A DNA stretch of 64,000 nt from Omnitrophica WOR_2 bacterium. GTDB taxonomy: Bacteria; Bacteroidota; Bacteroidia; Bacteroidales; Lentimicrobiaceae. Of this stretch, positions 3,015 through 62,836 are shown in pieces (the stretch's first letter is position 1; each line of letters opens with the position of its first letter). The DNA lies in NCBI GenBank assembly GCA_050259095.1, contig JBLMZZ010000162.1, positions 4,667-68,666 on the forward strand. The letters are read 5' to 3'. The translations under genes and the position numbers were made by a program. The notes beneath the pieces were generated by a model. That model saw nothing but the letters and a program-made list of their open reading frames with translations. It was not told the origin of the DNA and searched no databases.

Positions 3015-3098
3015 GCCCAGGTGGTGAAATTGGTAGACACGCCAGCTTGAGGGGCTGGTGTCCTTAAGGATGTGCAAGTTCGAGTCTTGTCCTGGGCA
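3015..3098 (+). tRNA. tRNA-Leu (anticodon GAG)
   Basis: Acceptor stem GCCCAGG/CCTGGGC, D-loop TGGTAGAC, anticodon arm CCAGC-TTGAGGG-GCTGG, long variable arm, GTTCGAGTC T-loop; CCA not encoded. Confidence 0.97.
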
Positions 3099-3153: not shown

Positions 3154-3237
3154 GCCCGGATGGCGGAATTGGTAGACGCGCTAGTTTCAGGGACTAGTAT
3201 ACTTACGTATGTGCAAGTTCGAGTCTTGTTCCGGGCA
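3154..3237 (+). tRNA. tRNA-Leu (anticodon CAG)
   Basis: Acceptor GCCCGGA/TCCGGGC, anticodon arm CTAGT-TTCAGGG-ACTAG, long variable arm, GTTCGAGTC T-loop; CCA not encoded. Confidence 0.97.
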
Positions 3238-24390: not shown

Positions 24391-24912
24391 ATGAACTCAG
24401 AATTTACTGAAATAAAACCTGTTGATCTTAAAGAAAATGCAATAAAACTTATTGGCTATGATTGGATGCTATTAACAGCTGGTAATCTTACCAACTACAA
24501 TACTATGACTGCTAGTTGGGGAGGGATGGGAATGTTATGGAACAAACCTGTTATGTTTATTTTTGTGCGTCCTCAACGGTTTACATTTGAGTTCATTGAA
24601 AGAGAAGAATATTTTACTTGTAGTTTTTATGAAGAGAAACATCGCTCTAAGCTAAGTTTCTGTGGTACTTATTCAGGTAGAGATTGTAATAAAGCTGAAG
24701 AAGTTAATATTTCGCCTATTGAAACCGCAAACAGTGTTAGTTTCAATGAAGCTAAAATCATAATAGAATGTAAGAAAATCTATTTTCAGGATCTTGATCC
24801 TAATCATTTCATTGAAGAAGGAATAGGTGATCATTATCCCGACAATGATTACCATCGCATGTACATTGGAGAAATATCTTCAGTGTTGATTAAAAATGAG
24901 AATGAGGAATAA
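24391..24912 (+). CDS. Flavin reductase family protein
   Basis: WMLLTAG, NTMTASWGG, FVRPQRFT, GTYSGRD, DYHRMYIGEI. Confidence 0.9.
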   Translation: MNSEFTEIKPVDLKENAIKLIGYDWMLLTAGNLTNYNTMTASWGGMGMLWNKPVMFIFVRPQRFTFEFIEREEYFTCSFYEEKHRSKLSFCGTYSGRDCNKAEEVNISPIETANSVSFNEAKIIIECKKIYFQDLDPNHFIEEGIGDHYPDNDYHRMYIGEISSVLIKNENEE

Positions 24913-60950: not shown

Positions 60951-61415
60951 ATGGGGAATTCCGGATTTTACGATAAAAACAAAACTCTAAGAGAAGGAGA
61001 GTACTACATTTTTAAGTATCTCAATTGCATAACCATGGAAGATAATAATAAATACATGGTTTTTGAAGATGAATTTGGTACAAAGTACTTCATAGAATTT
61101 GAACCATACCAACACTATTCACTTAAGCTTTTATCGGAAATAAGATGTTTTGTGGATAAAATCAATTGTACTGGAAGAGTATTTCTTGAACCCGAACACC
61201 CCATATATCAAGCGGGCGAAAGCTATTATTTTACCATCAAGTCTATTTTTTCAAATGAAGATGGATTAGTACTTTCGGTTGTTGATTGTTTTGATAATTT
61301 AATCAACCTTCAAACTAATGGGAAATACTTTTCTAATAAAGATCAGGGAAGTAGGATATTGGCCAAAATTACACGAATAAAAAAAGGAATACCTGAATTG
61401 ACTTTAGGAAACTAA
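60951..61415 (+). CDS. Hypothetical protein with two beta-rich OB/S1-like repeats
   Basis: Repeated GExYxF...D..G pattern (GEYYIFK / GESYYFT); VDKINCTGRVFLEPEHP. Confidence 0.65.
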   Translation: MGNSGFYDKNKTLREGEYYIFKYLNCITMEDNNKYMVFEDEFGTKYFIEFEPYQHYSLKLLSEIRCFVDKINCTGRVFLEPEHPIYQAGESYYFTIKSIFSNEDGLVLSVVDCFDNLINLQTNGKYFSNKDQGSRILAKITRIKKGIPELTLGN

Positions 61416-61523
61416 ATATCAAGATCACAACTTTCAAAATAACCCTGTTCCCTAATTTTAGGTTATGAACAAAAGTTAATAACTTCTGTTGAAAATCAGT
61501 TAATTAAATTATTGTTAAAACAC

Positions 61524-61554
61524 TTGACATCACTTATTGAATGTTGTAATTTTA
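61524..61554 (+). promoter_or_regulatory. Promoter for the intergenic ncRNA
   Basis: TTG (61524-26), 20 nt, TAATTTTA (61547-54; one mismatch to TAnnTTTG). Confidence 0.6.
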
Positions 61555-61557
61555 CCA

Positions 61558-61873
61558 CATCAGGCCAACGATACGGTGAGAATCAGGAAAGATGGATGAA
61601 GAGAAAGGCCGTAAGGAACTTATCTTTATTTATTAAGTTTTTCGCAGGATTGTTTGAAGTAGCCGTGAAAAAGCTAACATTTTAATCCGGAAGACACACC
61701 TGACTAAAAGAATTGACACGAAAGTGTTGTTCGCAAATAGTAAGTATCAACTGCTTTACGAAGCAGAATGATTGCAAGCACCGAAACAATAACCTGACGT
61801 TTTATGTCAGTTACGACTGGGATAAAGCAAAAGGGAAACCACTTCGAAAGAGTAGTTTCCCTTTTTGTTTTTT
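61558..61873 (+). ncRNA. Large structured non-coding RNA of about 310 nt; family unassigned (Bacteroidales-type motif candidate)
   Basis: Own promoter and terminator, no credible long ORF, several hairpins with GAAA and UACG tetraloops. Confidence 0.65.
61828..61873 (+). terminator. Intrinsic terminator of the ncRNA
   Basis: AAAAGGGAAAC-CACTTC-GAAA-GAGTA-GTTTCCCTTTTTGTTTTTT. Confidence 0.88.
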
Positions 61874-61969: not shown

Positions 61970-62500
61970 ATGACCATACTAGAACTTTTGCAATTAGAAG
62001 CATCAAAAAGAAATATTAATCAAATAATTAGTATAATAAATCAACAGCCTGAACTTTTTGAGACTTTATGGAGTATTTTCTGCCAACAAAAAAATCCAGA
62101 GAGTAGGAGGGCAGCTTGGGCTATTGATCTTTTAAATGAGAATTTAGCTTATCTGAATGAAAAGCACTTGGAAACTATTATTAGTATGCTTCCATTATAT
62201 AAGCATGAAGGATACAAACGACATTCATTAAGGATCTTAGAGAGAAATATAATCCCCGAAACACATAAAGGTGAAGTGGTTTCTATTTGTTTTAACTGGT
62301 TAGAATCTCCATCCAGTGCTGTATCTGTTAAAATGTTTTGTTTGAAGATTCTTGAAAGAATAGCAAAAGAAGAACCGATTATCAGTCGTGAATTGATTGA
62401 CATAATAGAATTGCAATTGAATGATGCAACTCCGGGATTTAAAAGTATTGGATTAAAGACAATTAGAAGTTTGCAGAAGTTAATTGCAATTAATAATTAA
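61970..62500 (+). CDS. Hypothetical alpha-helical (HEAT/ARM-like) protein
   Basis: RRAAWAID, AVSVKMFCL..L, EP.I..EL..IIE, TPGFKS; helical repeat pattern. Confidence 0.65.
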   Translation: MTILELLQLEASKRNINQIISIINQQPELFETLWSIFCQQKNPESRRAAWAIDLLNENLAYLNEKHLETIISMLPLYKHEGYKRHSLRILERNIIPETHKGEVVSICFNWLESPSSAVSVKMFCLKILERIAKEEPIISRELIDIIELQLNDATPGFKSIGLKTIRSLQKLIAINN

Positions 62501-62539: not shown

Positions 62540-62836
62540 TTATTCCTCAGCTTCGGGGGTATCGGTCTCGGCGAAATTATCTTCAGCCTCTTTTTCTTCA
62601 TTTAATTCATCAAGTGTTTCGTCCTCATTCAGGCCCTTTGTATCAATTTTAACAGGAACCTTCACAAGATAACTGGCAGTTTCAGTATCTACTGTGATGG
62701 CATAGAAAAAGTCTTCACCGTGCGTCTTAACTTTAATTACATGATTGGTGTAACCAAGTGGATACTTTTTACGGATTGCTTCCATTACTTCCGCTGATAC
62801 ATTATTATAATTGACAACCAATCGTTTACGTTCCAT
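62540..62836 (-). CDS. Conserved small Bacteroidota protein with acidic tail
   Basis: KRLVVNY...KKYPLGY...TETASYLVKV followed by an E/D-rich C-terminus. Confidence 0.7.
   Translation of the reverse strand: MERKRLVVNYNNVSAEVMEAIRKKYPLGYTNHVIKVKTHGEDFFYAITVDTETASYLVKVPVKIDTKGLNEDETLDELNEEKEAEDNFAETDTPEAEE

What the first reader, a model, noticed from the sequence alone, without database searches (positions are those of the whole stretch)
61524..61873. Stand-alone ~310-nt multi-hairpin non-coding RNA between two CDS
A 555-nt intergenic gap contains a complete transcription unit with no plausible protein. It has a Bacteroidota promoter (TTG-N20-TAATTTTA), a body of about 310 nt and a strong terminator (61828-61873). 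Stems seen in the sequence: GGATT/AATCC (61647-51/61684-88) enclosing TGTT/AACA and TAGC/GCTA; TGACAC-GAAA-GTGTTG (61714-29, GNRA loop); CTGCTT-TACG-AAGCAG (61751-66, UNCG-type loop); CTGAC/GTCAG (61794-61810). Two TCAGG copies (61560, 61583) and two CCTGA copies (61699, 61793) allow long-range or alternative pairing. It lacks the tRNA-like ends of tmRNA and is not a simple 6S-like rod by eye. Inference: a large trans-acting RNA. It may belong to an orphan Bacteroidales motif family (Bacteroidales-1 or -2 type, function unknown) or be new. This is the strongest candidate in the window for an uncharacterised system.
Basis: partly seen in the sequence, partly recalled or inferred. Interest (0 to 1): 0.75.

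Follow-up and report, generated by a model that had tools for sequence, protein, structure and literature searches.

The report
Abundant new structured RNA in Bacteroidales
The gap holds a real gene for a roughly 262-nt, intricately folded non-coding RNA that matches no catalogued RNA family, occurs in Lentimicrobium and at least eleven other Bacteroidales families, and far outnumbers tmRNA, RNase P RNA and the 6S-like RNA of the same organism in the metatranscriptome runs examined; its function is unknown.

Summary
Window 61524-61873 (+) is a stand-alone RNA gene with a Bacteroidota-type promoter, a multi-helix body and an intrinsic terminator. Stranded metatranscriptome reads cover only about 61560-61821. 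They stop sharply before the terminator hairpin, so the mature RNA is about 262 nt and is trimmed at its 3' end. Read depth is 150-355, against 14-16 for the organism's 6S-like RNA, 3-12 for tmRNA, 1-3 for RNase P RNA and 0 for both flanking genes.

No Rfam 15 family matches. A covariance model built from 20 relatives finds the other subgroups at 76-110 bits. In that alignment 55 of 61 base pairs show compensatory changes. The RNA is nearly universal in Lentimicrobium. Homologs of 234 to about 870 nt occur in at least 11 other Bacteroidales families, all sharing the same 5' and 3' closing module.

Nearly all copies carry a gene-specific palindrome, GTTATTAACAATTGTTAATAAC, centred about 83 bp upstream of the start. 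The RNA often follows relA and a small tandem-OB-fold protein gene. tmRNA, RNase P RNA and SRP RNA are encoded elsewhere in the genome, and a separate 6S-like RNA is too.

The best reading is a new class of stable, abundant RNA that probably binds protein. The mechanism is inferred, not shown.

The parts
61473..61494 (+). Degenerate copy (TTATGAACAAAAGTTAATAAC) of the upstream palindrome GTTATTAACAATTGTTAATAAC that accompanies this RNA gene in other species. It is centred about 83 bp upstream of the RNA start.
   Evidence: Seen at the same distance from the promoter in nearly all homologs across families. The full palindrome occurs only at the RNA locus in each of the genomes tested. This species' copy has about 3 mismatches.
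61523..61529 (+). -33 promoter element CTTGACA
   Evidence: CTTGAC is invariant in 29 aligned relatives.
61547..61554 (+). -7 promoter element TAATTTTA (Bacteroidota TAnnTTTG type)
   Evidence: Conserved as TAnnTTT(A/G) at fixed spacing. No reads lie upstream of 61560.
61560..61821 (+). Mature RNA as it accumulates, about 262 nt. The 5' end is within a few nt of 61560 and the 3' end is at 61821/22.
   Evidence: Stranded reads from X18 and X19 cover only this span. 63 of 120 (X18) and 45 of 59 (X19) molecules begin at 61821/22. Depth is 0 beyond 61845 and 0 upstream of 61560.
61560..61583 (+). 5' half of the closing module: P1 strand UCAGG (61560-64), loop CCAACGAUA(C), P2 strand (C)GGUG (61574-78), then AGAA
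   Evidence: Nearly invariant in the genus. P1 and P2 covary. In other families the same module reads YCARG-YSAGNGAUAAAAGG.
61584..61702 (+). Domain I: P3 (61584-87 with 61699-702) enclosing a GNRA-capped hairpin (CCGUAAGG, 61609-16), P5 (61637-43 with 61689-95), P6 (61647-51 with 61684-88) and P7 (61660-63 with 61673-76)
   Evidence: Consensus folds of subgroups A and B give the same architecture. Covariation is counted per helix.
61703..61741 (+). Domain II: P8 (61703-05 with 61739-41) with a GAAA-capped hairpin (61716-27)
61742..61775 (+). Conserved linker GUAAGUA and domain III: P9 (61744-49 with 61769-75; 61751-56 with 61761-66) capped by UACG
   Evidence: GTAAGT is nearly invariant. The P9 tip covaries with 100% of cells paired (helix 14).
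61779..61797 (+). 3' half of the closing module: P2 strand CACC(G), loop AAACAAUAA, P1 strand CCUGA
   Evidence: ACA-TAA-CTG is invariant. It is conserved as AAUAACARUAACYUG in other families.
61799..61828 (+). P10 hairpin capped by UACG. The mature 3' end (61821) lies within its 3' strand, seven positions short of the hairpin's 3' end at 61828.
   Evidence: Strong covariation (helices 15-17). The loop region RCUACGGY is conserved across families.
61829..61873 (+). Intrinsic terminator (stem 61829-44 with 61850-65, then a U-run). Present in the gene but almost absent from the accumulated RNA.
   Evidence: The stem covaries. Read depth is about 2 at 61830-44 and 0 beyond.
60951..61415 (+). Upstream 154-aa protein gene with a predicted tandem OB-fold. 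A frequent but not obligatory neighbour of the RNA and a candidate partner (inference).
   Evidence: AlphaFold2 mean pLDDT 87.9, two beta-barrels. Foldseek hits are tandem-OB proteins: Teb1, HIN-200, ModE di-Mop, bS1. The order relA, this gene, then the RNA recurs in two families and in metagenome contigs.

Best explanation
Shown. This is the gene for a stable, very abundant, highly structured non-coding RNA that belongs to an uncatalogued family of environmental Bacteroidales. It is transcribed on the + strand from its own Bacteroidota-type promoter. The accumulated RNA ends at the P10 hairpin; the terminator hairpin encoded downstream is almost absent from it. It accumulates as a species of about 262 nt. 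Its 5' and 3' ends pair (P1, a conserved internal loop, P2). This closes a four-way junction of GNRA- and UNCG-capped helices.

Inferred. Transcription runs to the intrinsic terminator and the transcript is then trimmed back to the P10 hairpin. The RNA acts in trans as a folded molecule, most likely as the RNA part or scaffold of a ribonucleoprotein. It probably does not act by base-pairing with mRNAs. The family-wide closing module and the P10 hairpin would be the protein-binding and 3'-end-protecting platform. The variable interior (about 190 to 800 nt) would be a structural or effector domain. Expression would be driven or controlled through the gene-specific palindrome about 83 bp upstream. 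The tandem-OB-fold protein often encoded just upstream is the leading candidate partner. The recurrent position after relA hints at a role in growth-state or stress physiology. The biochemical function is unknown.
For: Expression, strand and ends: stranded reads cover only about 61560-61821, at depth 150-355, with 0 in both flanking genes. The 3' end at 61821/22 is sharp.

Abundance in the same runs: tmRNA body 3-12, RNase P RNA 1-3 outside its universally conserved segment, 6S-like RNA 14-16. Contig depths are 13,900 against 754 and about 2,000 in X12.

A homolog from another family is equally dominant in an activated-sludge metatranscriptome: 1.2-2.8e5 against 9 for the neighbouring gene.

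Structure: model R1, built only from subgroup B, recovers subgroups A and C full-length at 76-110 bits and rejects three chance pattern hits. 89.7% of cells are paired against 32-43% when partners are slid. 55 of 61 pairs have double changes. 0 of 500 shuffles reach the observed values.

Conservation: 34 of 36 other Lentimicrobium genomes have a full copy. Eleven other families have homologs of 234-560 nt, and one form is about 870 nt, all with the same end module.

Not cis-regulatory: the downstream gene varies or is absent, and there is no read-through.

No coding potential.

Gene-specific palindrome.

OB-fold neighbour.
Against: No experiment or computation here shows protein binding or any activity. 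The RNP reading rests on analogy with other abundant stable RNAs and on gene neighbourhood.

The OB-fold gene is missing next to the RNA in about a third of the Lentimicrobium loci and in most other families. It therefore cannot be an obligatory cis-linked partner. Its Foldseek matches are at fold level only (TM about 0.3).

The relA linkage is seen in three families only. In others the neighbours are dnaG or glyS.

Abundance comes from a few rRNA-depleted metatranscriptomes and from assembler depths. Structured small RNAs can be over- or under-represented in such libraries.

Covariation was counted on an alignment fitted to the model, which favours the structure.
Confidence: 0.55

Rival explanations
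1. It is a 6S-type or Ms1-type RNA that binds RNA polymerase and sequesters it in slow growth.
For: Abundance is very high. The ends are paired and enclose a conserved internal loop. The gene sits next to relA. RF00013 and RF01693 find no 6S over threshold in any of 37 Lentimicrobium genomes or in 17 genomes of other families that gave a hit to the RNA's 3'-end pattern.
Against: A separate RNA of about 185 nt, homologous to sub-threshold Bacteroidales-1 hits, lies downstream of zapA as in other families. It is expressed in the same runs. The candidate is a branched four-way junction, not a rod with a central bubble. Its length varies from 234 to about 870 nt. It has no sequence similarity to Bacteroidales-1 RNAs.
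Confidence: 0.07
2. It is a regulatory RNA that titrates a global RNA-binding protein or other RNAs (a sponge). The variable number of tetraloop hairpins and purine-rich linkers would be repeated binding units.
For: Sponges need high copy number. Hairpin number and total length vary widely between families. The RNA is purine-rich and U-poor: A 26-44%, U 9-26%. CC-GNRA-GG hairpins recur.
Against: The best-conserved parts are the unique closing module and P10, not a repeated unit. The interior helices covary as one defined architecture within the genus. No repeated single-stranded motif of the CsrA-site kind was seen, but this was judged by eye only.
Confidence: 0.15
3. It is a ribozyme or a self-assembling ornate RNA, like the large RNAs that build multimeric particles, and works without a dedicated protein.
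For: There are many GNRA tetraloops, which are typical of tertiary docking in large RNAs. A multi-way junction is present. Loop nucleotides in the closing module are strongly conserved.
Against: No known ribozyme core matches in Rfam. No substrate or cleavage product is evident. The single sharp 3' end looks like exonucleolytic trimming to a hairpin.
Confidence: 0.12
4. It is a cis-acting leader or riboswitch for the downstream 176-aa gene, or a 3' UTR product of the upstream operon.
For: It lies between two genes on the same strand and ends in a terminator.
Against: It has its own invariant promoter. Depth is zero in both neighbouring genes against hundreds on the RNA. The downstream gene is absent in several species and different in other families. 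No riboswitch family matches.
Confidence: 0.02
5. It encodes one or more small proteins.
For: ORFs of 57 and 61 aa can be drawn in this copy.
Against: These ORFs are not conserved, and the longest ATG-ORF in homologs is 5-56 aa. Substitutions are compensatory in helices. Indels are not in multiples of three.
Confidence: 0.01

Closest known systems
OLE RNA (Rfam RF01071) and raiA motif RNA: large, abundant, ornate bacterial RNAs of unknown or partly known function
   Same: All are stand-alone genes for large RNAs with many conserved helices. They are among the most abundant non-rRNA transcripts, are restricted to one bacterial lineage, and (for OLE) work as an RNP with dedicated proteins encoded nearby.
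   Different: There is no sequence or model match. The lineage differs (Bacteroidales, not Bacillota or Actinomycetota). The architecture differs: an end-to-end closing module plus a four-way junction. Length varies about 3.5-fold. No oap-type neighbours were seen among the flanking genes examined.
6S RNA of Bacteroidales (Bacteroidales-1, RF01693) and Ms1 of mycobacteria
   Same: Abundant stable RNAs with paired 5' and 3' ends that are processed after transcription.
   Different: Ours is branched, not rod-like. It gives no match to RF01693 or RF00013. A separate 6S-like RNA exists and is expressed in the same organism.
ROOL and GOLLD RNAs
   Same: Large size range, dense tetraloop-capped helices, unknown biochemical role, discovery in metagenomic lineages.
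   Different: There is no model match. Ours is chromosomal, single-copy and syntenic next to housekeeping genes (relA, dnaG, glyS). It is not near tRNA arrays or prophages. It is mostly smaller.
Bacterial Y RNAs (Rsr/Ro partners)
   Same: A conserved stem formed by the 5' and 3' ends with a conserved internal loop, a variable distal domain, and a frequent adjacent gene for a candidate binding protein.
   Different: The neighbour is a tandem-OB protein, not a TROVE/Ro protein. Ours is much larger and far more abundant. No Rfam Y-RNA model matches.

Membership tests
6S RNA (RF00013; Bacteroidales-1, RF01693) | Match to the family covariance model | tested here: not met
   No 6S family is listed at E<=10 on the region or on 14 homologs. 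RF00013 and RF01693 do not hit this locus in the whole genome.
6S RNA (RF00013; Bacteroidales-1, RF01693) | Rod-like fold with a large central bubble flanked by closing and terminal stems | tested here: not met
   The covariation-supported structure is a four-way junction with 17 helical segments.
6S RNA (RF00013; Bacteroidales-1, RF01693) | It is the organism's 6S locus (downstream of zapA in related families) | tested here: not met
   A different, expressed RNA of about 185 nt, homologous to weak RF01693 hits, occupies the zapA-downstream site at C54:~24530-24730.
6S RNA (RF00013; Bacteroidales-1, RF01693) | Binds RNA polymerase holoenzyme and templates product RNAs | not testable with these tools
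   Needs co-purification with polymerase or small-RNA libraries.
tmRNA, RNase P RNA, SRP RNA | Match to the model, with no other copy in the genome | tested here: not met
   Genuine copies lie elsewhere: tmRNA on C177 (aragorn), RNase P RNA on C56 at 227 bits, SRP RNA on C113 at 59.5 bits. Local alignment to the organism's own RNase P RNA is no better than shuffles, z = 0.05-1.4.
OLE (RF01071), ROOL, GOLLD, raiA and other large orphan RNAs in Rfam | Match to the family covariance model | tested here: not met
   No such family is listed at E<=10 for the window region or 14 homologs, or at E<=0.1 for 10 loci from other families.
Riboswitch or cis-regulatory leader | Conserved association with the regulated downstream gene, and read-through transcripts | tested here: not met
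   The downstream gene is variable or absent. Read depth is 0 beyond 61845.
The uncatalogued Bacteroidales large-RNA family defined here | 5' YCARG-(N)SAGNGAUA...GG paired with 3' ...AAYARUARCYUGR, followed by a hairpin holding RYUACGR, then a terminator | tested here: met
   The window copy has UCAGG-CCAACGAUACGGUG and CACCGAAACAAUAACCUGA, followed by the GUUACGA hairpin. It scores 91.5 bits against R1, which was built without it.
The uncatalogued Bacteroidales large-RNA family defined here | Upstream palindrome GTTATTAACAATTGTTAATAAC centred about 83 bp before the RNA start | tested here: inconclusive
   This species has only a degenerate copy with about 3 mismatches at the right place. Most relatives have the full site.

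The most novel reading that the evidence does not exclude
The RNA is the core of a previously unknown, highly abundant ribonucleoprotein of environmental Bacteroidales. Its partner would be the lineage-restricted tandem-OB-fold protein encoded next to it. A dedicated regulator would switch it on through the gene-specific palindrome. It would act in the relA-linked growth-arrest or stress response. That would make it a new housekeeping-grade RNA machine comparable in rank to 6S or OLE.
Probability: 0.25. Interest if true: 0.9.

Novelty: categorically new. Interest (0 to 1): 0.8.

Why it matters
New bacterial RNA classes that are both large and very abundant are rare. Past examples (6S, OLE, tmRNA, RNase P RNA) each opened a field. 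In the runs examined, this RNA far exceeds the other stable RNAs checked, both in Lentimicrobium and in a related family. These lineages are recurrent in anaerobic digesters, activated sludge, sediments and soils. The RNA is missing from Rfam, so it goes unannotated in thousands of genomes and may be miscounted in metatranscriptomes.

The work here supplies concrete handles for experiments:
- a cultured host (Lentimicrobium saccharophilum carries the neighbouring protein family);
- mapped transcript ends;
- a covariation-supported structure;
- a candidate protein partner;
- a unique candidate operator.

It also shows that the Rfam Bacteroidales-1 model misses the 6S RNA of many Bacteroidales families.

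Tried and rejected
- Rfam at gathering threshold and at E<=10 on the region, on 14 homologs and on 10 loci from other families gave only terminator-driven noise such as sraA, BSnc120 and frnS.
- tmRNA, RNase P RNA and SRP RNA identity is rejected because the real genes lie elsewhere.
- A resemblance of 'ACAGCAAACCGCAAGG' and 'GGUAAGU' to the RNase P specificity domain was followed. Alignment to the organism's own RNase P RNA is no better than shuffles. These motifs are also not conserved in other families. The idea was dropped.
- The 6S-replacement idea looked good at first, since RF01693 is absent from all RNA-positive genomes. It was rejected after a separate expressed 6S-like RNA turned up downstream of zapA.
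- The pattern scan of genome contigs gave three chance hits: L036, L050 and L058 (Methanosarcina). They lack the structure and score nothing with R1. L086, L091, L092 and L109 are likewise false.
- The genome search does not accept a DNA alignment, and mafft-qinsi is not installed.
- Looking for the palindrome elsewhere in 15 genomes found only half-sites. A literature search for the palindrome found nothing relevant.
- Pfam and NCBIfam give nothing for the three small neighbouring proteins.
- Literature searches for a Lentimicrobium ncRNA or a 'Bacteroidales-2' motif found nothing relevant.
- Contig-based runs could not fix the 3' end of the family-f102 homolog.

Full report
WHAT IS THERE

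The finding lies in a 555-nt gap between a 154-aa gene (60951-61415) and a 176-aa gene (61970-62500), both on the + strand. The gap contains the following elements:
- a -33 element CTTGACA (61523-29);
- a -7 element TAATTTTA (61547-54);
- a body rich in hairpins;
- a strong terminator hairpin (61829-65) with a U-run.

The + strand folds at -88.5 kcal/mol, z = -4.0 against shuffles. The reverse strand folds about as well (z = -4.6). Energy therefore does not decide the strand. The generic sigma-70 scan does not cover Bacteroidota promoters and was uninformative.

NOT A CATALOGUED RNA

Rfam 15 at gathering thresholds finds only two tRNAs in the whole window. At E<=10 the region gives only weak hits driven by the terminator. 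Fourteen relatives and ten loci from other families also give nothing.

The organism's stable RNAs are encoded elsewhere:
- tmRNA on contig C177;
- RNase P RNA on C56, 227 bits;
- SRP RNA on C113.

CONSERVATION

BLAST finds the element once in its own genome. It finds it in 29 of 36 other genomes of the same genus and in none of 24 other families. A pattern built from the two most conserved blocks, scanned over one genome per species of the GTDB collection, returned 33 true loci. All are Lentimicrobium or unnamed Bacteroidales MAGs. Three further hits were chance matches.

Within the genus the gene order is constant: relA/spoT, then the optional 154-aa gene, then the RNA, then the optional 176-aa gene, then a 98-aa gene and glgB on the opposite strand. 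The promoter hexamers are invariant.

STRUCTURE

Consensus folds of two subgroups, computed separately, give the same architecture:
- P1 (UCAGG/CCUGA) and P2 (GGUG/CACC) join the 5' and 3' ends across a conserved internal loop.
- Inside is a four-way junction. Domain I is P3 enclosing a GNRA hairpin and P5-P7. Domain II is P8 with a GNRA hairpin. Then come a conserved GUAAGUA linker and domain III, which is P9 capped by UACG.
- P10, a UACG-capped hairpin, follows P1. The terminator comes last.

I built covariance model R1 from 20 subgroup-B sequences only (280 positions, 61 pairs). It recovers all subgroup-A and subgroup-C members full-length at 76-110 bits, and it ignores the three chance loci. 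On the resulting 37-sequence alignment:
- 89.7% of cells are paired, against 32-43% when partners are slid by 1-3 columns;
- 55 of 61 pairs have changes on both sides;
- 418 cells have double changes, against 55-105 in the slid controls;
- none of 500 shuffles reaches the observed values.

That alignment is fitted to the model, which favours the structure. The MAFFT-only alignment already shows compensatory changes in P1, P2, the P9 tip, P10 and the terminator. Window coordinates of the helices come from the subgroup-A fold. The CTGAC/GTCAG stem is not.

EXPRESSION, ENDS AND ABUNDANCE

Public metatranscriptomes hold the sequence. In two stranded raw-read runs from a soil sample, reads lie only on about 61560-61821. 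Their orientation means an RNA on the + strand. The same orientation rule holds for tmRNA, RNase P RNA and the 6S-like RNA laid from the same runs.

Depth is 150-355 in X18 and 75-193 in X19. It is zero in both flanking genes, zero upstream of 61560 and zero beyond 61845. About half of the molecules at the 3' side begin exactly at 61821/22. That position lies in the 3' strand of the P10 hairpin. The terminator hairpin is therefore removed and the RNA is trimmed back to a protective hairpin, as happens with stable RNAs. The accumulating species is about 262 nt.

Depths for the organism's other stable RNAs in the same runs:

| RNA | Depth |
|---|---|
| This RNA | 150-355 (X18) |
| 6S-like RNA | 14-16 |
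| tmRNA body | 3-12 |
| RNase P RNA, outside its universally conserved segment | 1-3 |

Assembler depths in two other runs tell the same story: 13,900 against 754 and about 2,000 in X12.

A T>C difference at 61612 in about 90% of reads changes the GUAA tetraloop to GCAA. Both are GNRA loops. This is most simply a strain difference.

NOT THE 6S RNA

Bacteroidales-1 (RF01693) is the Bacteroides 6S RNA (bioRxiv 10.1101/2024.04.05.588293; PMC7366714). It is found over threshold in none of 37 Lentimicrobium genomes and in only 4 of 24 other families. It is also found in none of 17 genomes that gave a hit to the 3' pattern. This at first suggested that the new RNA replaces 6S.

However, the weak RF01693 hits all sit just downstream of a zapA-like gene. 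This genome has zapA at C54:25062-24790 (-). It is followed by a homologous RNA of about 185 nt, with 69% column identity to three such hits and the same blocks CCCGCAU...AAACUCAAC...GGCAGCUCCA...UGCGGGUUUUUU. That RNA is expressed as a discrete transcript. The organism therefore has a separate 6S-like RNA, and the candidate is something else.

A WIDER FAMILY

R1, searched over 400 genomes of the order, found one full-length homolog in another family (48 bits). It also found short matches to the 3' end in seven more families. Reading those loci shows complete genes with the same layout:
- a promoter;
- a 5' end YCARG-YSAGNGAUAAAAGG;
- a GNRA-rich, purine-rich, U-poor interior of very different length;
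- a 3' end AUAAUAACAGUAACYUGG-CG, a hairpin holding GCUACGGY, and a terminator.

P1 covaries between families: UCAGG/CCUGA, CCAAG/CUUGG, CCAGG/CCUGG and UCAAG/CUUGA.

A strict 3' pattern hits 17 of 401 genomes of the order. Sixteen of these, in 11 families besides Lentimicrobium's, also have the 5' motif. The same pattern hits 1 of 388 genomes of other orders of the class, and that hit has no 5' motif. This pattern is strict, so the counts are lower bounds.

Core lengths run from 234 to 560 nt. A metagenome contig carries a form of about 870 nt. One genome has two tandem copies. With R1, five of the seven Lentimicrobium genomes that BLAST missed have full copies. One incomplete MAG has a fragment and one has none.

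A homolog from family f102 reaches summed contig depths of 1.2-2.8e5 against 9 for the neighbouring gene in a 151-Mb activated-sludge metatranscriptome. It is held in runs from sludge, sediment, biofilm, freshwater and biogas reactors.

A GENE-SPECIFIC UPSTREAM PALINDROME

Nearly every homolog, in every family, has GTTATTAACAATTGTTAATAAC at a fixed distance. Its centre lies about 83 bp before the start of the RNA. It is followed by one or two TGTTNA-like repeats. The window's species has a degenerate copy (TTATGAACAAAAGTTAATAAC). In the genomes tested, the full palindrome occurs only at this gene. Second hits are half-sites. It is not mentioned in the paper library. I read it as a binding site for a dedicated or high-affinity regulator. 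This is an inference.

NEIGHBOURS

relA precedes the RNA in three families. In others the neighbours are dnaG (convergent) or glyS. The RNA therefore sits among housekeeping genes, with no single conserved protein neighbour.

The 154-aa upstream protein has no Pfam or NCBIfam family. It is predicted with confidence (pLDDT 87.9) to form two beta-barrels, and its fold matches are tandem-OB proteins. Its family is tiny and lineage-restricted: 60 clusters in 5.8 billion proteins, including L. saccharophilum TBC1_12305. In four of the five contexts read as DNA, the order is relA, then the OB-fold protein, then the RNA. The exception is the most divergent paralog. It is absent from that position in about a third of Lentimicrobium loci.

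WHAT IT MOST LIKELY DOES

Shown:
- It is an independent gene.
- Steady-state level is very high.
- The 3' end is trimmed to a hairpin.
- There is a covarying multi-domain fold with a family-wide closing module.
- It is not cis-regulatory and not coding.
- It is not tmRNA, RNase P RNA, SRP RNA or 6S RNA.

Inferred:
- It is a trans-acting folded RNA that works with protein. The closing module and P10 would be the platform.
- The OB-fold protein is the best candidate partner.
- The palindrome would control expression.
- A link to growth state is suggested by relA.

Rivals are a protein or RNA sponge, a ribozyme or self-assembling RNA, and an RNA-polymerase binder. None is excluded except by the arguments given above.

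EARLIER NOTES OF THIS SCAN

Two notes from other genomes appear to describe the same family. One is a unit of about 890 nt beside a small OB-like protein gene, assigned to an 'undescribed family of about 280-1000 nt'. The other is an RNA of about 490 nt in more than 200 Bacteroidales genomes. I found them only after my own analysis. They agree with it but are not independent evidence.

VERDICT

This is a new class of RNA with strong evidence for existence, structure and expression. Its function is open.

Noticed in passing
own genome, contig C54:~24530-24730 (- strand), outside the window; locus L114:350-530: A 6S-like RNA of about 185 nt lies directly downstream of zapA. It is expressed (depth 14-16 in X18, flanks 0) and is homologous to sub-threshold Bacteroidales-1 hits in three other families. 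RF01693 and RF00013 both miss it, so the Rfam models under-cover 6S RNA in many Bacteroidales families.
   Followed up: yes
window 61473-61494; L082-L108 about 60-100 bp upstream of each RNA promoter: The perfect 22-bp palindrome GTTATTAACAATTGTTAATAAC, followed by TGTTNA repeats, sits at a fixed distance upstream of the RNA gene in almost all families. Its full form is unique in each genome tested. Its binding protein is unknown.
   Followed up: partly
L090 (G256, family f94), two RNA starts 485 nt apart: Two tandem copies of the RNA gene, each with its own palindrome and promoter.
   Followed up: no
L136:3010-4010 (metagenome-derived contig JBAXXB010000025.1): A variant of the RNA of about 870 nt, downstream of relA and the OB-fold gene. 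Its end module is divergent (CACCGG...CCGGU). It is not detected by R1.
   Followed up: partly
window 61612: About 90% of transcript reads have C instead of T (159 of 176 in X18, 89 of 93 in X19). This turns the GUAA tetraloop into GCAA, the commoner form in relatives. It is probably a strain difference, since no DNA run of the same sample was laid to exclude editing.
   Followed up: no
window 62540-62836 (- strand): A 98-aa protein with an acidic tail has no Pfam or NCBIfam family. At 74-93% identity across the genus it is much better conserved than its neighbours (35-60% for the two small flanking proteins). It lies downstream of the RNA in most of the Lentimicrobium loci whose flank reaches that far.
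   Followed up: no
L087:978-1711 in run X38: One 734-nt metatranscriptome contig (depth about 4,700) runs from inside the f102 homolog past its 3' end into the downstream region. This suggests some read-through or a downstream transcript in that organism.
   Followed up: no
window 3015-3098 and 3154-3237: Two adjacent tRNA genes with long variable arms. They are the only Rfam matches in the window at gathering threshold.
   Followed up: no
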